Below, one piece after another: positions 1,215 to 58,631 of a stretch of 64,000 bases of DNA. Under the pieces are notes generated by a model, which was not told the DNA's origin, searched no databases, and saw nothing but the letters and a program-made list of their open reading frames with translations. Every line of letters starts with the position of its first letter. The first letter of the stretch is position 1. The stretch lies in NCBI GenBank assembly GCA_963783675.1, contig CAWAOU010000016.1, positions 98,478 to 162,477 of the forward strand, given 5' to 3'. Source of the DNA: an uncultured Gammaproteobacteria bacterium (GTDB lineage: Bacteria; Pseudomonadota; Gammaproteobacteria; Competibacterales; JAHEDQ01). The position numbers and the translations under genes are program-made.

Positions 1215-1404
1215 GACACCAAATATTGTTCCTGAACTGCGCATTGATGAAGCGCAATCCGCCGCTGCCGGAGTGAGACGGAGGCGTTGCGGCCGGTACG
1301 AAATATCCGCCGAGCCGGTGCGGGCGCACAACCCGATCAACCCAACGCATATCTACCGCCGCAGCAAACCCAAAGAAAGCGTGAGCCGTGTCCCGAATAG
1401 CCTG

Positions 1405-1482
1405 TATGCAGATTGGGACCGAAATTCACCGCTTCATCGTTGGAAATCCAGGCAATAAAACAACTGATACCCGCGATCCGCC
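1405..1482 (+). repeat. copy A of an ~80-nt intergenic repeat family
   Basis: Hand alignment to 50204-50278 gives about 52 identities over 70 aligned positions. Shared core: TGCAnnTTGGGACyGAAAnnCACnnCTTCATCrTTGnArATnnnGGCAATArAnCAACnnnTACCCGCrA. Lies 20-100 nt past the stop of the 1503..4817 gene. Confidence 0.6.
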
Positions 1483-1502
1483 CAGAGGTGGCCGCAGGAC
1501 CG

Positions 1503-23897: not shown

Positions 23898-24041
23898 GCG
23901 TTGGCCAGCGCAGCCCGGATTCAGCATCTCAGGGCAAACCGATCGTATCTGCCCGATCGCCGGTGAGGCGCCTCTGATCTATTCCGGACGACGAAGATTG
24001 GCGGGTGGAATGTACAGATTCAAGAGGCGGATCGCGGGGCA

Positions 24042-24127
24042 GATCGCGGGTAATAGTTGTTCTATTGCCAAAATCTGCAACGATGAAGCTTGTGCATTTC
24101 AGTCCCAAGGTGCACGTTCACGAATAG
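24042..24127 (-). repeat. copy C (inverted orientation) of the ~80-nt intergenic repeat family
   Basis: The plus strand GATCGCGGGTAATAGTTGTTCTATTGCCAAAATCTGCAACGATGAAGCTTGTGCATTTCAGTCCCAAGGTGCACGTTCACGAATAG is the reverse complement of the A/B consensus. The match to copy B extends into ...TGCACGTTyAyGnATAG. Confidence 0.6.
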
Positions 24128-24139
24128 ATCAGACCTCCC

Positions 24140-25885
24140 CTAGTTCTCATGCACTTCAACAACGGTCTCCCTCGCTGCCTGTTTGACTCTCCGTAGCTCG
24201 CGCAAGTGGTCCGCCAGACGAATTGCCATTGCAACAATGGTTAAAACGGGATTTGCTTGACCGCAAGTTGGGAACACGGCGCTGCTTGCAACGTACAGAT
24301 TCTCCATCCCATGTACGCGGCAGTTCGGGTCTACGACACCGTACTTTGGGTCAATGGACATTCGAGTTGTTCCGGCTTGGTGCACACCGTCTCCGACCTG
24401 GTCAAGTATGTGTTCCTCGCGATCGGCTCTTTTGTACTCAAGCTCTCCTACGTTGCTGCGCCGTAACGCCGCATCAATTAATTCGTGCGCCGATGCGGTG
24501 CTCTCTATGTCGGATTCCTTCCATCTGTAGTCTACCGTCAGGCGTGGCATTCCAAGGCTGTCTTTCTCTCGCGACAGATACACGCGACTGTCCCTATTCG
24601 GAGACTGCTCGCTGCAGTATCTCAAATCATACACATTGTTTTTACTCTTTATAACAAACCCCGGGATTCGTGGTTTCTGGACGTAACGCTGATACAGCCA
24701 TCTCGGAACAACGCTCAGTACCGCGGGAAAGTCTGATATGACATTCCTTAGATGCTTTCCATATGTGCTAACGTCGGTGCCGTCCAGTCGCTTCTTTAAC
24801 ATCTCGGTCCTTCCAAGAGCCAATTTCCGCTGATACCCGGGGGCAAGGAGATCCCTTAACCCTGGCGTCTGCAAGGCGAGGTAACTCATCGAGAGTACGC
24901 CACTTCCATGGACTGGATCATGCTTGGGGGAATTATCCAGCGATGCGACAAAGTTGAGGATACCGCGTTCTCTCTGTTTGGCTTCAGGTATCCAAAATCG
25001 GCGCCTACAATAGATTCCGTCCCGAGTTTTTTCAAATCCGTAAACGACATTACTTTTACGGTCTTTTAATTTGATTTTCGCGATGGAGCCGTAAATGTGA
25101 CCCATATAACCCCGGCCAAGCCAACCCGAGTGATTACCAATCCCATCCTTCTGAATGTAATTCGACGCAAGCAAAAGCCGCGTGGTTTCAAGGCAACCCG
25201 CCGCGAGGATGAAATCTTTTGCTTTTACATAATAGTTATTTCTTTTGAGCGACGAGACCGTCAGCTGAGATATCCGATCACTAGACTGAGCCAGATCTAA
25301 ACTCGTGCAATTGCTGTTCAGAAACAGCCGAAGGGATGGACTGTCCTCGAGCTGCCTCCTGTACCTGCGGCCGAAGTTTGTCGGGGGACCCCATCGCTCC
25401 AACGCGCTAGTGACCACTTCACCATCGGGGAATTCGGGGATCATATCTCGTTGTGCCGATGGAACTGCGAGGTTCGAACTGTAAAGATATTCACCGACTT
25501 CGCAGTAAACTTGGGCTCTACGGTAGAAGGGCTCTAATGTTGTCTTGGAAAAAGGCCATCCAGATAAGTCGACGTAGTCCCGTTCTTCGAAATCGATATC
25601 ATCGAGTGGAAGGCAGCGGCCGCCCCAGACCGTTGTAGTTCCACCAAGCTGGCGATGACGGGATTCGTGGAGAGGCGCATGGCAGCCGCTGTTAACCAAA
25701 GTGCCCTTGTACAGGTCCTGAGTTGCATCATCCAGTTCTGTGCTACCCCCCTCAAGCAATATTACATCTAAGTTTGCAGCCGCGAGTTCTAGTGCGAGGG
25801 TGATTCCGCCGGCACCACCGCCGACCACACAAATGTCACTTTCGAATACAGCACCCGCTTCTATTTTGTGTCCGTCGATGATCAC
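24140..25885 (-). CDS. GMC-family FAD-dependent oxidoreductase
   Basis: 581-aa ORF with the N-terminal dinucleotide fold DICVVGGGAGGITLALELA...LLEGG. The C-terminal strings HQAGTTRMS and NLYVASSAVFPTCGQANPVLTIVAMA are typical of GMC_oxred_C. Visibly AT-richer than the flanks. Confidence 0.9.
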   Translation of the reverse strand: MIIDGHKIEAGAVFESDICVVGGGAGGITLALELAAANLDVILLEGGSTELDDATQDLYKGTLVNSGCHAPLHESRHRQLGGTTTVWGGRCLPLDDIDFEERDYVDLSGWPFSKTTLEPFYRRAQVYCEVGEYLYSSNLAVPSAQRDMIPEFPDGEVVTSALERWGPPTNFGRRYRRQLEDSPSLRLFLNSNCTSLDLAQSSDRISQLTVSSLKRNNYYVKAKDFILAAGCLETTRLLLASNYIQKDGIGNHSGWLGRGYMGHIYGSIAKIKLKDRKSNVVYGFEKTRDGIYCRRRFWIPEAKQRERGILNFVASLDNSPKHDPVHGSGVLSMSYLALQTPGLRDLLAPGYQRKLALGRTEMLKKRLDGTDVSTYGKHLRNVISDFPAVLSVVPRWLYQRYVQKPRIPGFVIKSKNNVYDLRYCSEQSPNRDSRVYLSREKDSLGMPRLTVDYRWKESDIESTASAHELIDAALRRSNVGELEYKRADREEHILDQVGDGVHQAGTTRMSIDPKYGVVDPNCRVHGMENLYVASSAVFPTCGQANPVLTIVAMAIRLADHLRELRRVKQAARETVVEVHEN

Positions 25886-25930
25886 TCTCTATCTCCCCCT
25901 AATTAGCAATTGCTGTTCATAAATACCTAA

Positions 25931-27118
25931 GGAACCTCTGCAGATTTCCCGGCAGGGTATAATGCCGATCATTGGTCCACACCCCTTCGACGCCCACAAC
26001 CGAGAGACACCAGATGAAGCAAACCACCTTTGCCTCGTTGAGCTACCCGTCGAAGAAGATGCAGACGAGACGGGAAAAGTTTCTGGCGGAGATGGATCAG
26101 GCGGTGCCTTGGGCGCAGTTGATCGCGCTGATCGAACCTCATTACACCAACAAGGGCCAACGCGGGCGCTCGCCGATGCCGCTTCAGAGCGTGCTGCGGA
26201 TCTACTTCATGCAGCAGTGGTATGCAATGTCCGATCCGGCGATGGAAGATGCGCTCTACGAGATTGAATCGATGCGCCGTTTTGCCGGGCTGGAGTTGAT
26301 CGACGACGCCTTGCCTGATGAGAGCACAATTCTCAGGTTTCGCCACCTGCTCGAGCGCCGCCAGTTGACGAAGCGGATGTTGGACACGATCAACACGCTG
26401 CTGGAGGAACGAGACGCGCTTCTCAAAGGTGGCACCATGATCGATGCCACGATCATTCACGCCGCGCCCTCGACGAAGAACCGGGCGAAGGCACGTGATC
26501 TGGAGATGCACCAGACCAAGAAAGGCAACCGGTGGTACTTCGGGATTAAGCTGCAGGTGGGGGCGGACGTGAACAGCGGTGCCGTGCACACCGTCTCGGC
26601 CACGCCGGCCAACGCGCCCGACATGAGTGAGATGCCGAATCTGCTGCGCGAGGACGATCGCTCGGTGCTCGGTGACGCGGCTACGTGAACAAAGGTATCA
26701 AGCAGGGCGGCCCGCGAGGCGGGCGTTTACTGGGGTGTGGCGCTGAAAGCCCAGCCGAAACGCCGATTGGGTGGCGGGCAGAAGCGGCGCAATCGAAAGA
26801 TGTCCTCGATTCGCAGTCGCGTCGAGCATGTATTTCGGGTGCTGAAGCGCCAATTCGGCTACGCCCAAGGTCGATACCGCGGCTTAGCCAAGAATGCGGC
26901 ACAGGTCTTTACCCTGATCGCGCTCACCAATTTGTACCTGAAGAGGCGGCAGTTGATGGCCTGAGCGGACCCGTCCGCCCGGAATCTGCGAACCGGGGCG
27001 AAACGGGCCGGAAGCAGACGCAAAACAGGCAGGAAATCGCCAAGTCATCCGGTTTTCTGTACGCGGACAGCGCCTCATGGAGATTCTGTCGCCTTTTCGC
27101 AAATTCTTCAGAGGCTCC
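25931..27118 (+). mobile_element. IS5-family insertion sequence (about 1.19 kb), transposase disrupted
   Basis: Imperfect terminal inverted repeats: GGAACCTCTGCAG (25931-25943) versus the reverse complement of CTTCAGAGGCTCC (27106-27118), which is GGAGCCTCTGAAG. The internal gene is clearly IS5-like. I could not identify a clean target-site duplication. Confidence 0.8.
26014..26964 (+). pseudogene. IS5-family DDE transposase, interrupted
   Basis: MKQTTFASLSYPSKKMQTRREKFLAEMDQAVPWAQLIALIEPHY...MEDALYEIESMRRFAG...MHQTKKGNRWYFGIKLQVG parallels E. coli IS5 InsH. There is an in-frame TGA at 26686-26688 (GDAAT*). The C-terminal part SSIRSRVEHVFRVLKRQFGYAQGRYRGLAKNAAQVFTLIALTNLY resumes in the original frame. 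Confidence 0.85.
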
Positions 27119-27269
27119 CAAACGATCAGTGGGATGGAAGAGTTACTATCAATGGCGATACGATCAAGGCTATGACCGCCTGCAGTTATTTCGGAGATTC
27201 TCAAGCTCCCCTTCGGGAGGCACAATCCATATAGCACAACCTGGCTGTGTGGAACACAAAAGGCGTGCG

Positions 27270-27536
27270 CTACGCAAGTTTTCTGTTGGCATGAAGGGTA
27301 GTCAGATTTTGTCGCTTCATTTTTCTGGCGACATAGCGAACGGCAACAACCGCGATCAAAGCGATTCCCAAGATTATCAAAATGACGGCTAGCGCAAGAA
27401 AGAAACTCTCCTGAAGAGCATCGTTTTCGTCAAGTCGATTGCAATAAAATATCTTTTCAGGAATGCCGGAAACCAACCCAGCGATTACCATTATAATTCC
27501 TGACCAAGACACTTTCGACATACGTCTCATCCCCAA
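27270..27536 (-). CDS. small hydrophobic protein (two predicted TM helices), function unknown
   Basis: 88-aa ORF in a very AT-rich stretch. Hydrophobic segments are WSGIIMVIAGLVSGI and FFLALAVILIILGIALIAVVAV, followed by a basic tail. No homolog recognised. Confidence 0.4.
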   Translation of the reverse strand: MGMRRMSKVSWSGIIMVIAGLVSGIPEKIFYCNRLDENDALQESFFLALAVILIILGIALIAVVAVRYVARKMKRQNLTTLHANRKLA

Positions 27537-27538
27537 TG

Positions 27539-27721
27539 TTAGCTACTAGCGTTGTTCTTACGGCCTGTCCAAGAAGGGCTAACTTTGTTGACATAATCAA
27601 ATTCAAATAATATTACTGAGCACCACGGAAAAAAGTTAATCCATGTTGGTATCATGGCGAGGATGGCGGTTGTTGTTATTTCAACCTGAGCCGCACGGTC
27701 GATGCTTGTCCTTGAACTCAT
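27539..27721 (-). CDS. possible small membrane protein, function unknown
   Basis: The AT-rich part of ORF 27539..27808 read from the internal ATG at 27721 gives MSSRTSIDRAAQVEITTTAILAMIPTWINFFPWCSVILFEF.... Its stop lies 2 nt before the next ORF's start. Weak call. Confidence 0.25.
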   Translation of the reverse strand: MSSRTSIDRAAQVEITTTAILAMIPTWINFFPWCSVILFEFDYVNKVSPSWTGRKNNASS

Positions 27722-28048
27722 CGTCTGAACGGCGTTCGGGCAGCGTCGGTTCCTCCCTATACCCGTCGCAGCCCGCCGACCGCCCCTACCCCGCTCGGAC
27801 GGCGTCACCCGCGCCCGGTACCGGCTGTTGGGCGCAAAGACCCCGTTATAAGCGGGTCAGGTTGACCCGCGGTTTGGGCACCCCATAGACCCGTATCCCC
27901 CGTCGCTTGCGGGTGTTTGCGAAGGCACCCGACTCATCCAGCACCCGACCCGGGTCGGGTGGAAGATTGTGCCGGCGGCGTCAACGACCTATAACTGACA
28001 ATGGCCGGCGCAATCGTGTGACGGGCCGCCAAACGGGGGAAACCACAT

Positions 28049-48614: not shown

Positions 48615-49820
48615 CTAGCCCTCCGTCGGCGCCTTGGTCTCGGACGCCTCCGGAGAAGGCGGATCGGGATCGGGATTGCCTTGCCGAGGATCCTGGCTCA
48701 TGCGCGGATCGACCACGATGCCTGGACGCACCTTCTGGATGCCCTCAACGATTACCTTCTCATCCGGTTCCAGACCCTCGGTAACAACCAACTGCCCGGC
48801 ATCGGCCCGCCCGGTCTTGATCCTGCGTTGCTCCACCTTATTACCGGGGCCAACGACCATCACGAACGTGCCGGCCTGATCCTCCTGAACCGCGGATTGT
48901 GGAATGGTCAGGGCTTCGGCCTCCTCCTCACTGCTCAGAAGGGCCCGCACATAGAGCCCAGGAACCAGGAGCTTTTCCGGATTATCGAACTTGGCGCGCA
49001 CGATGACCGTACCGGTATTGCGATCCACAACGTTATCGATGAAATCGATGCGCCCGACCTGATCGAACAGGCTGCCGTCGGGCAACCGCAGTCTCAAGGC
49101 AACCGACTCCAGATCGTCAACACCCTTGTTCTGTTCCAGCAACCGCCGCTTGGCAGTGATGATGTCCCCTTCGCTGACGCTGAAATTGACGTAAATAGGG
49201 TCCAGTTCAACCAGGCGCGCCAATTCCCCGGCCTGAGAATCCACCAGATCCCCCACACTGAAAATGGCCCGCCCGATACGGCCGCTGATGGGTGCGGTGA
49301 TCAGGGTATGCCCCAGGTCGATTTCCGCCTTCTCAAGTTCCGCCTGGACGGACATGAGTTTTGCCTCGGCAGTCAGCTTGCTCTCTTCGGCCTCTTCCAG
49401 ACGCTGGGTACTGCCGGCGTTTTCCTTCACCAGGTTGGTCTGACGCTGCACATCCTGATTGGCCCGCAAGAGAGATGCTTGGACCTCTGCTACGGCCCCC
49501 TCCGCAGCCGACACCTGCGCCTGGTAGATGGCCGGATCGATCAGAAACAGGGGCATCCCCACGTCGACGTCCTGACCCTCACTGAAACGACGTTCCTTCA
49601 AATATCCCGCCACCTGGGCCCGCAGGGACACGTCGTTGACCGCCACTGTCCTGCCTATGTACTCGACCGACTCGTCCACCGTCTCCACGGTCGCGGCGGC
49701 AATCAGCACACCGGGTGGAGGCCCCTCGACCGCAGGGGCCTGACTCTCGCTACAGGCCGCTAGCGCAAGCGACAATGCGCCTGCAGCAAAAGGAACGAAT
49801 AGACGGCGCACTGGATTCAT
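48615..49820 (-). CDS. RND efflux periplasmic adaptor (membrane fusion protein), second copy
   Basis: I prefer the ATG at 49820, giving a lipoprotein-type MNPVRRLFVPFAAGALSLALAAC. The ORF-track extension to 50081 is R/C-rich and unlikely. It has a coiled-coil plus beta-barrel layout. Confidence 0.9.
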   Translation of the reverse strand: MNPVRRLFVPFAAGALSLALAACSESQAPAVEGPPPGVLIAAATVETVDESVEYIGRTVAVNDVSLRAQVAGYLKERRFSEGQDVDVGMPLFLIDPAIYQAQVSAAEGAVAEVQASLLRANQDVQRQTNLVKENAGSTQRLEEAEESKLTAEAKLMSVQAELEKAEIDLGHTLITAPISGRIGRAIFSVGDLVDSQAGELARLVELDPIYVNFSVSEGDIITAKRRLLEQNKGVDDLESVALRLRLPDGSLFDQVGRIDFIDNVVDRNTGTVIVRAKFDNPEKLLVPGLYVRALLSSEEEAEALTIPQSAVQEDQAGTFVMVVGPGNKVEQRRIKTGRADAGQLVVTEGLEPDEKVIVEGIQKVRPGIVVDPRMSQDPRQGNPDPDPPSPEASETKAPTEG

Positions 49821-50190
49821 ATCGGGCCTTCGAAAACTGTGATCGGCGCATCGACCGGGATGGGCACACCCGGGCAAAACAATCTGGATTTGGATTAAGA
49901 CGCACAGTCTACAGAATGTGTGACCGACTCGCATGGAAGCTCGCACGCAATCGGTCATTCGAAACCGGCGAAGCCTAAACGCCCCGCCCCGCTCATGTGC
50001 AGCGGCCAATGGCGCGAGCATCCCGCGCCCGAGCCAACAGCGCCGCATGCGGACAGGCCTGGGAGACGTCTTGCGTCTCAACCGCGCTTAATACACCTGA
50101 TTGAGAGCCAGAGCCGCAGACATGTTCGTCGTCAGAACACTCGAAGACCAACCTTGAAGCACAAGGCGCGCGGGCTAAGGCGTCTCTGAC

Positions 50191-50278
50191 CTATGCATAA
50201 ACGTGCATATTGGGACTGAAACGCACAGCTTCATCATTGCAGATCTCGGCAATAGACCAACGACTACCCGCAAACTGC
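50191..50278 (+). repeat. copy B of the ~80-nt intergenic repeat family
   Basis: CTATGCATAAACGTGCATATTGGGACTGAAACGCACAGCTTCATCATTGCAGATCTCGGCAATAGACCAACGACTACCCGCAAACTGC. Aligns to copy A and, reverse-complemented, to copy C. Contains ATTGC-N8-GCAAT dyad symmetry. Confidence 0.6.
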
Positions 50279-50344
50279 GTCTCGCATCTGCGCATTTTCG
50301 GTCACCGATCTGATTCGTCCAGAGTAAATCAGAAACGCCTTAAC

Positions 50345-51082
50345 TCATGCTGCCGGAGCGTCTTCTTGCCCGGCGGTTGGTTCCACCAAGTCGAGGTAGG
50401 CATACCAGGTCGCATGGCCCAGCAGTGGAAAGATCACGATCATGCCTATGAGCAACGTAGCGAATCCCACGCCGACGATTAGCACGCACAGGGCACCCCA
50501 CACGAGCATCACCGGCAGATCCGCACCCAGCGTCACGCGGAGCCTGGTGTGCATTGCGGTGCCCGCGTCGACGTCCCGGTCGATGATCATCGGCACCGAG
50601 ACAACCGAGAGGGCGGAGACAACGCAGGCCAGTATTCCTCCGACCACCAGATAGGAAACCATTTGGGCCGCGGTCAAATTGACCAGAACATCGCCCCACA
50701 TGGTCTCGAAGTAGTTTGGGCCAACGCTGCCAAAGGTCATGAACAGCATCAGGCCGGACAGGCCAAACCAGGCGAAGCTGAACAGCAACAGCGTGCCGGC
50801 GTAGCGCAACAAGCTCTCGCGATGCTCCGAGAGAGACTGAAGTGAGGTATCGAAATTCGAAACCCCGCCACTGGTCCGCAATCGTGACAGCTCACACAAT
50901 CCTGTGGCCATGATCGGGCCAACTAACAGGAATCCGGAAATCGCGGCGGCATGCGCGTAAGGAAGCTGTCCGATGGTGAGAATCAGGGCACCCAGAATGC
51001 TCACCAAAACGCCGCAGCCAAGGCTGGCACCCTTGTGATGGAGCAGGTCATCCCATCCCCTGCTCAAGGAAGGTCTGATCAA
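50345..51082 (-). CDS. DUF2189-like integral membrane protein (5' end possibly disrupted)
   Basis: 245-aa ORF beginning at a TTG. LSRGWDDLLHHKGASLGCGVLVSILGALILTIG plus four or five further hydrophobic segments fit my recollection of DUF2189. No ATG or GTG start is available in frame. Confidence 0.65.
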   Translation of the reverse strand: MIRPSLSRGWDDLLHHKGASLGCGVLVSILGALILTIGQLPYAHAAAISGFLLVGPIMATGLCELSRLRTSGGVSNFDTSLQSLSEHRESLLRYAGTLLLFSFAWFGLSGLMLFMTFGSVGPNYFETMWGDVLVNLTAAQMVSYLVVGGILACVVSALSVVSVPMIIDRDVDAGTAMHTRLRVTLGADLPVMLVWGALCVLIVGVGFATLLIGMIVIFPLLGHATWYAYLDLVEPTAGQEDAPAA

Positions 51083-54781: not shown

Positions 54782-54946
54782 TATTGAATCAGGGCGGATC
54801 GTTTTGTGTGCCAACAACAACGTTGCTCGGGAGGCTCTGATCTATTCCTGAATCTGCGCCTTAAATCACACATTTCACCCTTCAATTCGCTTTGTCCAGA
54901 CTAATTCAGGGATTCCCCAGGATGAGCATATCGAGCAAATGATCTA

Positions 54947-56532: not shown

Positions 56533-57927
<1,395 letters not shown>

Positions 57928-58070
57928 GCGGCGCACCGATTGCCCAACCCAGTGCTGTTTTTAACGCCATGGCGCGGCGCCAATGACCCCATCGCCCTAC
58001 GTCCGAAATGCCAGGATGGCCGCGGTCCGGAACGGGCCTTAGGCGACAGGATTGCTCGTTTTGAGAACCG

Positions 58071-58631
58071 TCAGTCGCCACCTTGGCGCAGCAGGACGAC
58101 GGATCGGCTCAGTGCCACTCTGGGTCGGCCCTTCTCTGAGAATCCTGCACGCCGGGCGGCCTCTACGCTGGCTTCGAACGCGTCCCTTTCGACATGGATC
58201 TTGGGCTCGACGATATGCAAGAGTGCGCCCGCGTTGAGCACCTCTCGCACCTGCTTGAACAAGTTCTCAGGGTTCGGAACTTCGTGAACCATCCAGAAAG
58301 CAACGGCAAATCCGAACCGCGGATCTTTGCTGAGCCCCAAATCGTTTGCAGTGGATTTGACGAATTCGGCGCGTTCCAAGAGCCCGACGCGCTCAAGGCG
58401 TCGCCGGGTCATCGCGAGCATATGTGCTTGCAGATCAACCGCGACCACCAAGCCATCAGGGCCGACCAGCCGCGCCAGGCCCTCGCTATTGAAGCCCGCC
58501 CCGCATCCGATGTCGAGTACATGCATTCCGGGGCGAACCCATTCCCCGAAGATTTGTTCGGGATCGTAGAGTAACCGGCGGATCGGATTGTCGAAACTGC
58601 GCACGAACCACCAGGGACAAACATGGGCCAT
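58071..58631 (-). CDS. class I SAM-dependent methyltransferase (small)
   Basis: I prefer the ATG at 58631, with GAGGAG upstream, giving MAHVCPWWFVRSFDNPIRR.... Motif I is VLDIGCGAGFNS, followed by VVAVDLQAHML. The ORF-track extension to 58880 is R-rich and unlikely. Confidence 0.8.
   Translation of the reverse strand: MAHVCPWWFVRSFDNPIRRLLYDPEQIFGEWVRPGMHVLDIGCGAGFNSEGLARLVGPDGLVVAVDLQAHMLAMTRRRLERVGLLERAEFVKSTANDLGLSKDPRFGFAVAFWMVHEVPNPENLFKQVREVLNAGALLHIVEPKIHVERDAFEASVEAARRAGFSEKGRPRVALSRSVVLLRQGGD

What the first reader, a model, noticed from the sequence alone, without database searches (positions are those of the whole stretch)
1405..1482. Three diverged copies of an ~80-nt intergenic element (1405-1482 +, 50191-50278 +, 24042-24127 -)
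Seen: hand alignment of copy A with copy B gives about 52/70 identities. Copy C in reverse complement matches B over an even longer stretch. The shared core in the orientation of C's plus strand is GCGGGTAnnnGTTGnTyTATTGCCnnnATyTsCAAyGATGAAGCn(T)GTGnrTTTCrGTCCCAAnnTGCAy.

All three copies are intergenic. In that orientation each lies shortly after a stop codon: about 20 nt after 1503, about 70 nt after 50345, and about 145 nt after 23897. The short reading frames across them are not conserved (M-K-R-stop in A, different frames in B and C), so the element is not a peptide gene. It contains an ATTGC-N8-GCAA(T/C) dyad and, in B and C, a GTGCr...TGCAC stem. Copy C sits exactly where base composition drops into the GMC/IS5 islet.

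Inference: this is a REP/MITE-like repeat, a 3'-UTR or sRNA module, or a shared operator. I do not recognise it as any Rfam family.
Basis: seen in the sequence. Interest (0 to 1): 0.5.

Follow-up and report, generated by a model that had tools for sequence, protein, structure and literature searches.

The report
Small IS5-derived mobile repeat (MITE)
The three ~80-base look-alikes are the middles of a 160-172-base non-coding "hitch-hiker" transposon (a MITE) that is copied around the genome by an IS5-type transposase; this is a previously undescribed family of a well-known, ordinary kind of element.

Summary
The three ~80-nt similarities (nhmmer E 1e-25 to 1e-31) are the central parts of a longer repeat. 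It is 160 bp, or 172 bp with a 12-bp internal duplication, non-coding and an imperfect palindrome. It has ~20-bp terminal inverted repeats (GGAGCCTCTGATyTATTC...) and 4-bp direct target-site duplications of the YTAR type (CTAG, CTAA, TTAG, TTAA).

The window holds four copies, not three:
- two full-length: C 23967-24139 (+) and B 50179-50339 (-);
- one truncated core fragment: A ~1389-1487 (-);

The family has at least 36 copies in the fetched parts of one Competibacteraceae MAG. It has 42 distinct full-length loci in the metagenome project that also holds this window's own region. It matched no other of 185,579 species representatives, and no plasmid, virus or Rfam family.

An 1188-bp IS5-family insertion sequence lies 1.8 kb from copy C. 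Its transposase is a pseudogene. Its first 11 terminal bases are identical to the repeat's, and intact relatives make the same 4-bp CTAG duplications.

Copies show no strand bias relative to genes and no interior covariation, so an sRNA, 3'-UTR or operator reading is not supported.

Verdict: an IS5-group-derived (type II) MITE. It is a new member of a known kind and of low to moderate interest.

The parts
23967..24139 (+). Copy C: full-length MITE, long form (173 bp, with the 12-bp internal duplication). Its flanking 4-mers are GTGA (23963-23966) and CTAG (24140-24143). The CTAG contains the stop codon of the convergent GMC-oxidoreductase ORF (24140-25885, -).
   Evidence: nhmmer with the full-length profile gives E 9e-50, model positions 6-174. 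Ends and flanks come, the sequence, and the GMC Pfam match.
50179..50339 (-). Copy B: full-length MITE, 161 bp. Its flanking 4-mers are TTAA (50340-50343) and TTAG (50175-50178, read on the - strand). It starts 1 nt after the TGA stop of the DUF2189 gene (50345-51082, -). It ends ~95 nt upstream of the longest ORF start of the HlyD/RND efflux operon (48615-50081 and 45444-48611, -).
   Evidence: Profile hit E 1e-45. Ends are, and Pfam matches of the neighbours. The orthologous copy is present in an 88%-identical relative, L055.
1389..1487 (-). Copy A: degenerate fragment. Profile positions 70-144 map to 1407-1481. The left arm is missing, since the 1104-aa ORF ends at 1503. The right arm is recognisable only by eye down to ~1389 (...GGCTCAC).
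   Evidence: nhmmer E 2.5e-17 with the full profile and 1e-25 with the core profile. The alignment is and the sequence. The extension to 1389 is my reading of the sequence, not a scored match.
54830..54916 (-). Copy D: a fourth copy of 87 bp with an internal deletion. Both terminal repeats are kept: GGAATCCCTGAATTAGTCTGG... and ...GAATAGATCAGAGCCTCC. Its flanking 4-mers are CTGG and CGAG.
   Evidence: nhmmer hits 54921-54852 (model 5-75, E 3.6e-10) and 54852-54826 (model 147-173).
25931..27118 (+). IS5-family insertion sequence of 1188 bp, the candidate partner or source of the MITE. Its left end is CTAA|GGAACCTCTGCAGATTTCC and its right end is ...TTCTTCAGAGGCTCC|CAAA. The transposase gene is 26014-26964 and is interrupted by an in-frame stop at 26686-26688, so it is a pseudogene.
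   Evidence: NCBIfam NF033581 IS5 family transposase, 223 bits against a cutoff of 140. Pfam gives DUF772 plus DDE_Tnp_1. The read-through translation is and the ends. The transposase is 72% identical to an ISMca7-family transposase and 82-85% identical to intact 316-aa transposases. The same truncated ORF is seen in 10 contigs from several samples.

Best explanation
[quoted passage not shown] It is a 160-bp non-coding DNA, or 172 bp with a 12-bp internal duplication. It carries the terminal inverted repeats recognised by an IS5-group DDE transposase but has no transposase gene of its own.

**Shown**
- The element has ~20-bp inverted termini, GGAGCCTCTGATyTATTC.
- It is flanked by 4-bp direct duplications of a YTAR-like target.
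- It is present in dozens of dispersed, almost always intergenic copies in two related uncultured gammaproteobacterial lineages.
- Its terminal 11 bp are identical to the right end of an 1188-bp IS5-family IS in the same window.
- Intact relatives of that IS make CTAG duplications.

**Inferred**
- A transposase of this IS type, supplied in trans from an intact copy elsewhere, binds the MITE ends, excises or copies the element and inserts it at YTAR sites, duplicating 4 bp.
- In a 61% G+C genome such sites are concentrated at TAA/TAG stop codons and in intergenic DNA. This would explain why many copies abut gene ends.
- Only the termini (~20-30 bp) resemble the IS, so it is a 'type II' MITE rather than a simple internal-deletion derivative.
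- Because the whole element is an imperfect palindrome, read-through transcripts would contain a ~75-bp hairpin. That hairpin could affect termination, processing or stability of neighbouring mRNAs. This is a side effect, not a demonstrated function.

For: **Anatomy**
- An alignment of 38 copies with flanks shows that similarity starts and stops sharply at ...YTAR|GGAGCC...GGCTCC|YTAR, and the flanks are unrelated.
- In the consensus the left and right ends are reverse complements over 20 of 21 nt. The whole consensus folds as one hairpin at -97.6 kcal/mol.

**Target-site duplication**
- In the MAG, flanking 4-mers match within copies more than between copies: 76 matched positions against 58.5 in permutations, p < 1e-4.
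- In 40 independent metagenome loci the figures are 107 against 82.3 (p < 1e-4). Nine loci have perfect 4-mers against 3.2 expected (p = 0.0015).
- The perfect pairs include the non-palindromic TGAG/TGAG, CTAA/CTAA, TTAG/TTAG and CCAG/CCAG. These can only be direct duplications, not an extension of the inverted repeat.

**Copy number and dispersal**
- 32 exact core matches lie on 28 contigs of one MAG, with further copies nearby.
- 93 profile hits, giving 42 distinct full-length loci, lie in 584 kb of metagenome contigs.
- Median identity to the consensus is 93%, with a maximum of 98%.

**Partner IS**
- The window IS at 25931-27118 has ends GGAACCTCTGCAGATTT and GGAGCCTCTGAAGAATTT. Against the MITE right end, the first 11 nt are identical and 20 of 30 match ungapped.
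- The transposase matches NF033581.
- Intact 1188-bp relatives are flanked by CTAG/CTAG.
- The MAG also has such an IS, with end CTAG|GGAAGCCCTGCAGATTT.

**Non-coding and strand-neutral**
- The element is 47.5% G+C in a 61% G+C window.
- Relative to tandem flanking genes, its orientation is 10 same against 8-9 opposite in each of the two samples. Copies occur in tandem, convergent and divergent intergenic regions.
Against: - No empty (unoccupied) orthologous site was found, so mobility is inferred from structure and not observed. The one orthologous comparison available, L055, shows the copy already present.
- Both IS copies seen next to the family are pseudogenes. The window copy has a stop at codon 238 of the listed ORF (25972-26688). 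MAG locus L023 has a stop at codon 8. No intact transposase with exactly matching ends was recovered, and no further IS copy occurs in 584 kb of MITE-bearing contigs.
- Similarity to the IS is limited to the terminal ~11 bp exactly, and to ~20/30 more loosely. Many IS5-group ends begin GGA, so part of this resemblance is generic.
- In the MAG sample the outermost ~8 bp are the least conserved part of the element. That would be unexpected for currently active copies, although the metagenome sample shows well-conserved ends.
Confidence: 0.9

Rival explanations
1. REP/REPIN-type repeat. The palindromic units would be moved by a RAYT (Y1, HUH) transposase acting on single-stranded hairpins.
For: The whole element is an imperfect palindrome that folds into one long hairpin. 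It is multi-copy, intergenic and often sits at gene 3' ends. REPINs are likewise pairs of inverted units.
Against: - 4-bp direct target-site duplications are present, including non-palindromic ones. REP/REPIN elements are not flanked by them (established knowledge).
- The termini match a DDE-type IS5 element.
- At 160-172 bp the element is longer than typical REPINs.
- There is no GTAG-type 5' tetranucleotide; the ends are GGAGCC.
- No RAYT gene was looked for genome-wide, so its absence is not shown.
Confidence: 0.03
2. A family of structured small RNAs or 3'-UTR modules. The repeat would be a transcribed, strand-specific RNA element such as a terminator, stabiliser or sRNA gene that has been duplicated.
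For: - The predicted hairpin is very stable.
- About a quarter of copies abut a stop codon.
Against: - There is no Rfam match at gathering threshold over the window, nor at E <= 1 on the element.
- The RNAalifold covariation term is about zero.
- On the full hairpin, 88.0% of cells are paired against 87.4% in shuffles. Double-sided changes are confined to the outermost pairs, which are the TSD and terminal bases.
- Orientation relative to flanking genes is random.
- Copies also lie in divergent promoter regions.
- No sigma-70-like promoter or intrinsic terminator pattern was found in copy B.
Confidence: 0.03
3. A shared operator or protein-binding site, that is, a cis-regulatory DNA motif conserved upstream of co-regulated genes.
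For: The conserved dyad ATTGC-N8-GCAA lies at the centre. Copy B lies upstream of an RND efflux operon.
Against: - Conservation is uniform at 92-95% over all 160 bp and is not focused on a dyad.
- Copies occur between convergent genes, where there is nothing to regulate.
- Neighbouring genes are functionally unrelated.
- Relatives of the DUF2189 gene at 75-80% identity have no copy nearby, though they lie in different gene contexts.
Confidence: 0.02
4. Segmental duplication of flanking genes, or chance similarity.
For: None beyond the initial small number of copies.
Against: Similarity ends sharply at the element boundaries and the flanks are unrelated in all copies. Profile E-values are 1e-25 or better. 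More than 70 further copies lie in unrelated contexts.
Confidence: 0.01

Closest known systems
IS5-family-associated MITEs: Porphyromonas gingivalis BrickBuilt, MITE293 and MITE700 (with ISPg1/3/4/9), and the Neisseria ATR element (with ISNme1)
   Same: These are short non-coding repeats whose terminal inverted repeats are identical or nearly identical to those of IS5-family insertion sequences in the same genome, while the interior is unrelated to the IS ('type II' MITE). They are multi-copy and mostly intergenic (PMC4596501).
   Different: - The sequences are unrelated: those TIRs are GAGACCTTTGCA..., whereas here they are GGAGCCTCTGAT....
- The hosts differ (Bacteroidota and Neisseria, against uncultured Gammaproteobacteria).
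- BrickBuilt carries an internal minisatellite and has irregular TSDs. The present family is a near-perfect palindrome with regular 4-bp YTAR duplications.
IS5 and the ISMca7-type IS5-group insertion sequences (autonomous elements)
   Same: The termini begin with the same GGA(A/G)(C/G)C.CTG motif and the 4-bp duplication is of the same CTAG/CTAA type. The window IS is 1188 bp with a DDE transposase (NF033581) that is 72% identical to an ISMca7-family transposase. IS5's YTAR target and 4-bp duplication are established knowledge.
   Different: The repeat has no transposase gene, is 160-172 bp long, and shares only ~20-30 terminal bp with the IS.
Correia elements (Neisseria), RUP (Streptococcus pneumoniae) and ERIC/IRU (enterobacteria): classical bacterial MITE-like palindromic repeats (from my own knowledge)
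   Same: They are 100-170-bp imperfect palindromes with terminal inverted repeats. They have tens to hundreds of intergenic copies, are often co-transcribed with neighbours, and include internally deleted size variants.
   Different: Correia and RUP duplicate TA and are linked to other transposase types. Correia elements carry documented promoters, IHF sites and RNase III processing, and none of these has been shown here.
REP/REPIN elements with RAYT transposases
   Same: They are palindromic, intergenic, high-copy and located at gene 3' ends.
   Different: REPs have no target-site duplications and are moved by a Y1 (HUH) enzyme. The present element has 4-bp direct duplications and DDE-IS termini.

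Membership tests
Bacterial MITE (non-autonomous IS derivative) | Short (about 50-500 bp), with no transposase gene | tested here: met
   The consensus is 160 bp, or 172 bp with a 12-bp duplication. It is far too short for a transposase. Some reading frames are open across 53 codons, but copies lie in both orientations between genes and carry indels.
Bacterial MITE (non-autonomous IS derivative) | Terminal inverted repeats | tested here: met
   The two ends are reverse complements at 20 of 21 consensus positions, GGAGCCTCTGAT(T/C)TATTC. The ends are well conserved in 40 metagenome loci.
Bacterial MITE (non-autonomous IS derivative) | Direct target-site duplications flanking the copies | tested here: met
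   The flanks are 4-bp duplications. Within-copy concordance exceeds permutations in two independent samples (p < 1e-4 in both). Nine of 40 are perfect, including non-palindromic 4-mers.
Bacterial MITE (non-autonomous IS derivative) | Many dispersed copies with unrelated flanks | tested here: met
   There are four copies in the window, at least 36 in fetched parts of MAG Ww208, and 42 distinct full-length loci in metagenome contigs.
Bacterial MITE (non-autonomous IS derivative) | Termini shared with an autonomous IS of the same host | tested here: met
   The right end of the window IS at 25931-27118 shares 11 of 11 terminal nt and 20 of 30 ungapped. The MAG has a related IS end. Caveat: both IS copies are pseudogenes.
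Bacterial MITE (non-autonomous IS derivative) | Presence/absence polymorphism (empty sites) between related genomes | tested here: inconclusive
   No empty site was found among the fetched loci, but all were selected for carrying the element. The only orthologous comparison, L055, has the copy. Relatives at 75-80% identity lack synteny.
Bacterial MITE (non-autonomous IS derivative) | Mobilisation in trans by the cognate transposase | not testable with these tools
   This needs a transposition assay.
IS5 family, IS5 group (for the partner IS at 25931-27118) | DDE transposase of the IS5 family | tested here: met
   NF033581 scores 223 bits against a cutoff of 140. Pfam gives DUF772 plus DDE_Tnp_1. 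The protein is 72% identical to an ISMca7-family transposase. The gene carries one in-frame stop.
IS5 family, IS5 group (for the partner IS at 25931-27118) | ~1.2-kb element with short TIRs and a 4-bp YTAR duplication | tested here: met
   The element is 1188 bp with flanks CTAA and CAAA, which is one mismatch. Intact 82%-identical relatives are 1188 bp with CTAG/CTAG.
REP/REPIN (RAYT-associated) | No target-site duplication; conserved 5' GTAG-type tetranucleotide | tested here: not met
   Direct 4-bp duplications are present and the termini are GGAGCC.
REP/REPIN (RAYT-associated) | Cognate RAYT gene in the genome | not tested
   Only a 64-kb window and fragments of the MAG were available, so no genome-wide Y1 transposase search was done.
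Any Rfam RNA family | Covariance-model match | tested here: not met
   There were no matches at gathering threshold on the whole window and none at E <= 1 on 23900-24200.

The most novel reading that the evidence does not exclude
The most novel reading not excluded is that the family has been co-opted rather than being merely parasitic.

(a) Its ~75-bp hairpin could act as a strand-independent RNA module, such as a bidirectional attenuator, an RNase III site or an mRNA stabiliser. It would sit at gene ends and between co-transcribed genes, as copy B does between the DUF2189 gene and the RND efflux operon.

(b) Its terminal repeat could serve as the dedicated landing site of a second, site-specific insertion sequence. 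In three MAG copies the same foreign element interrupts the repeat at exactly the same base. It begins an ORF MNITHIA..., which suggests but does not show an IS110/IS1111-type element.
Probability: 0.15. Interest if true: 0.4.

Novelty: new member of a known kind. Interest (0 to 1): 0.22.

Why it matters
**Practical value.** It is mainly useful for annotation. It names and delimits a repeat family that breaks assemblies and could be mistaken for sRNAs or regulatory motifs. The affected organisms are uncultured gammaproteobacteria related to a Competibacteraceae MAG.

**What the family offers**
- A consensus, a profile and a clear IS5-group partner.
- High-copy markers for strain typing and for following transposition bursts in metagenomes.
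- A further example of a 'type II' MITE that shares only its termini with its IS.
- An illustration of how a YTAR target steers insertions onto stop codons in a G+C-rich genome. One copy's terminal CTAG contains a neighbour's stop codon.

**Limits.** It does not open a new mechanistic question.

Tried and rejected
- **Rfam.** No match at gathering threshold on the whole window or at E <= 1 on copy C.
- **Plasmids.** blastn of copy C against 72,556 plasmids found nothing.
- **Viral contigs.** One hit, which the profile shows to be a chance 24-nt match in an AT-rich phage.
- **Single-sequence folding of the ~100-nt cores.** z-scores were about 0, except for C. This was misleading because the cores are only part of the hairpin.
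- **RNAalifold and explicit pair counting on 33 full-length copies.** No covariation beyond the terminal and TSD positions.
- **Promoter and terminator scan around copy B.** Nothing found.
- **TA-dinucleotide (IS630/mariner-type) duplication.** I considered this first, from the YTA|...|TAR flanks. I dropped it in favour of a 4-bp duplication once non-palindromic perfect 4-mers and the IS5 ends were seen.
- **Search of the window for the MITE terminal repeat as the end of a larger element.** 24-mer with up to 3 mismatches; nothing found. The IS match is shorter than that.
- **Empty-site searches.**
  - Homologues of the DUF2189 gene at 75-80% identity lie in different gene contexts and have no copy.
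  - An in-silico 'excised' query for 106 copies against all fetched DNA returned only tandem-copy artefacts.
- **Search for more IS5 copies in 0.8 Mb of fetched DNA.** Only the window IS, its own re-assemblies, the deliberately fetched relatives (L048-L054) and one truncated MAG copy turned up.
- **L006 (Ktedonobacterales).** This hit from the genome scan is a chance pattern match and is not recognised by the profile.

Full report
**1. Checking the observation**

The three stretches are present as described and align with long invariant blocks. A profile made from them finds exactly these three places in the window, at E = 1e-25 to 1e-31. Nothing else scores below E = 1. The similarity is real, intergenic and far beyond chance.

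**2. Relatives elsewhere**

I scanned one genome per species, 185,579 species in all, for the core pattern TATTGCCNNNATNTNCAANGATGAAGC. This gave 33 loci.
- 32 of them lie on 28 contigs of a single MAG, 'Candidatus Competibacteraceae bacterium Ww208'.
- The 33rd, from a Ktedonobacterales MAG, is not recognised by the profile and is a chance match.
- Plasmids, viral contigs and Rfam gave nothing.

**3. True extent and anatomy**

I aligned 38 copies with 80 nt of flank on each side.

The 166-nt consensus below includes the flanking TAG and CTA:

TAGGGAGCCTCTGATTTATTCTGGACGAAGCAGATTGGAGGGTGAAATGTGCAGATTCAAGGCGCAGATCGCGGGTAATAGTTGTTCTATTGCCAAGATTTGCAACGATGAAGCTGTGCATTTCAGTCCCAAGATGCACGTTCACGAATAGATCAGAGGCTCCCTA

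- The two ends are inverted repeats, GGAGCCTCTGAT(T/C)TATTC.
- The whole element is an imperfect palindrome predicted to fold as a single hairpin at -97.6 kcal/mol.
- The element proper is 160 bp and 47.5% G+C, in a window of 60.7% G+C.

**4. Copies in the window**

With the full-length profile the window contains four copies.

| Copy | Coordinates | Strand | State |
|---|---|---|---|
| C | 23967-24139 | + | Full-length, 173 bp, with a 12-bp internal duplication |
| B | 50179-50339 | - | Full-length, 161 bp |
| A | ~1389-1487 | - | Fragment; only model positions 70-144 are scored |
| D | 54830-54916 | - | 87 bp; the left ~70 nt are joined to the right ~25 nt |

**5. Target-site duplications**

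The bases next to the ends read YTAR on both sides. The target is often palindromic, so I asked whether the two flanking 4-mers of a copy agree with each other more than with those of other copies.

| Sample | Matched positions, observed vs permuted | Identical 4-mer pairs |
|---|---|---|
| MAG | 76 vs 58.5, p < 1e-4 | 4 |
| 40 distinct metagenome loci | 107 vs 82.3, p < 1e-4 | 9 vs 3.2 expected, p = 0.0015 |

The metagenome loci were selected with a different pattern, so the two samples are independent. The perfect pairs there include the non-palindromic TGAG/TGAG, CTAA/CTAA, TTAG/TTAG and CCAG/CCAG. These can only be direct duplications. The element therefore makes 4-bp target-site duplications with a YTAR preference.

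**6. The partner IS**

Composition does drop there.

- The ORF at 25972-26688 matches the IS5-family transposase model NF033581 at 223 bits, against a cutoff of 140. It also matches DUF772 and DDE_Tnp_1.
- Reading through one in-frame stop gives a complete 316-aa transposase.
- That protein is 72% identical to an ISMca7-family IS5 transposase and 82-85% identical to intact metagenomic ones.
- The IS spans 25931-27118 (1188 bp). Its left end is CTAA|GGAACCTCTGCAGATTTCC and its right end is ...TTCTTCAGAGGCTCC|CAAA.
- Read inwards, the right end is GGAGCCTCTGAAGAATTT.... Its first 11 nt are identical to the MITE terminus, and 20 of 30 match ungapped.
- Intact 82%-identical relatives are also 1188 bp. 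They have ends GGAAACTCTGCAGAAATCCC and CTAG/CTAG flanks.
- The MAG carries a related IS end, CTAG|GGAAGCCCTGCAGATTT, whose transposase gene has a stop at codon 8.

So the repeat and this IS type share both their terminal sequence and their 4-bp target type. Beyond ~30 bp the repeat's interior is unrelated to the IS. This is the 'type II' MITE situation described for IS5-family-associated MITEs in Porphyromonas and Neisseria (PMC4596501).

**7. Abundance, age and distribution**

A metagenome scan with GTGNNTTTCAGTCCCAANNTGCAC returned 69 loci. All come from one project, contigs Ga0316187-Ga0316197. The window's own IS region is also found in that project.

- The profile finds 93 copies there: 73 full-length at 42 distinct loci, plus fragments.
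- About half carry the 12-bp internal duplication.
- Some lie in tandem and share a CTAG (L094 and L096).
- Conservation is uniform along the element at 92-95% per segment. Median identity to the consensus is 93% and the maximum is 98%. The 'core' is therefore not specially conserved.
- Copy B is also present at the orthologous site in a relative whose DUF2189 protein is 88% identical (L055). Some insertions thus predate that split.

The family therefore occurs in at least two lineages: the window's organism and MAG Ww208. These two also share a 1.3-kb stretch at 91% nucleotide identity. That the window's organism is a relative of the Competibacteraceae MAG is an inference from these two facts.

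**8. Tests of the RNA and operator readings**

*Orientation.* In both samples copies lie in tandem, convergent and divergent intergenic regions. The metagenome sample has 18, 8 and 6 respectively. Orientation relative to tandem neighbours is 10 same against 8 opposite, and the MAG sample is about 10 against 9.

*Covariation.*
- RNAalifold gives a covariation term of about zero.
- On the full hairpin, 88.0% of cells pair, against 87.4% after shuffling.
- Double-sided changes are confined to the outermost pairs, which are the TSD and the first terminal bases.

*Signals.* No promoter-like or terminator-like pattern is found around copy B.

The palindrome is therefore inherited by descent. It is not maintained by compensatory change, and the element is strand-neutral. 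This argues against an sRNA or 3'-UTR module and against an operator.

**9. Relation to neighbouring genes**

About a quarter of copies abut a stop codon: 9 of 40 in the metagenome sample and about 10 of 38 in the MAG sample.
- In the window, the right-hand CTAG of copy C contains the TAG stop of the GMC oxidoreductase ORF.
- Copy B begins 1 nt after the TGA of the DUF2189 gene and lies upstream of an HlyD/AcrB-type efflux operon.

The simplest explanation is target choice. YTAR sites in a G+C-rich genome are enriched at TAA/TAG stops and in intergenic DNA. This is inference.

**10. What is missing**

- No empty site was found.
- No intact transposase with exactly matching ends was recovered.
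- Mobility and the identity of the mobilising enzyme are therefore inferred from anatomy and not observed.

**11. Verdict**

It is an IS5-group-associated MITE of 160 or 172 bp with 4-bp YTAR duplications.

I found no description of it in Rfam or in a full-text search. It is a new member of a well-known kind. Interest is low to moderate.

Noticed in passing
L009:1-108, L014:2636-2743, L033:3937-4044 (MAG Ww208): In three separate MITE copies the outermost ~9 nt of one terminal repeat are replaced, at exactly the same base (...GATCAGA|TGGCATGG...), by an identical 108-nt foreign sequence. That sequence leads into an ORF starting MNITHIA.... In all three the fetched sequence ends a few nt after this 108-nt stretch, at or near a contig end. 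This looks like a second multi-copy IS that inserts site-specifically into this MITE's end, as IS110/IS1111-type elements do with REPs and transposon ends. The family was not identified.
   Followed up: partly
window 54830-54916 (-): A fourth, internally deleted copy of the repeat (87 bp) keeps both terminal repeats but lacks the core.
   Followed up: yes
window 25931-27118 (+); also L042-L047: The 1188-bp IS5-family element has an in-frame stop at 26686-26688. The same truncated ORF is seen in 10 contigs from several samples, so the pseudogene is fixed in the population. It sits with a GMC oxidoreductase gene in a low-G+C islet (about 24140-27800, G+C 0.46-0.55 against 0.61-0.66 outside).
   Followed up: yes
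L094:8247-8592 and L096:1947-2292: Two MITE copies lie head-to-tail and share one CTAG, with a long form next to a short form. This suggests that the duplicated target at a copy's end is itself re-used as a target.
   Followed up: partly
metagenome loci L056-L124; window copy C 24028-24039: About half of the copies in the window's own community carry a 12-bp internal insertion (consensus GGGGCGGAACGC) that looks like a diverged duplication of the adjacent GG(C/G)GCAGATCGC, giving a 172-bp subfamily. The MAG copies are all of the 160-bp form.
   Followed up: partly
window 57084-58394 vs L033:2246-3556; window 57058-57076 (-): A 1.3-kb stretch is 91% identical at nucleotide level to the MAG. It holds a VIT1/CCC1-like membrane protein gene and the start of a methyltransferase gene. 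Right next to it, GGAAGATCTGCAGACTTCC resembles the IS5 left end with 3 mismatches, so it may be a solo IS-end relic marking a transferred segment.
   Followed up: no
window 50345-51082 (-): The DUF2189 ORF lacks about 22 N-terminal residues that all close homologues have (alignment A3). Its start may be mis-set, or the gene may be 5'-damaged.
   Followed up: no
L023:1-240 (MAG Ww208): An IS5-type element in the MAG has the left end CTAG|GGAAGCCCTGCAGATTTGCC. Its transposase gene has a stop at codon 8, so both IS copies seen near this MITE family are dead.
   Followed up: partly
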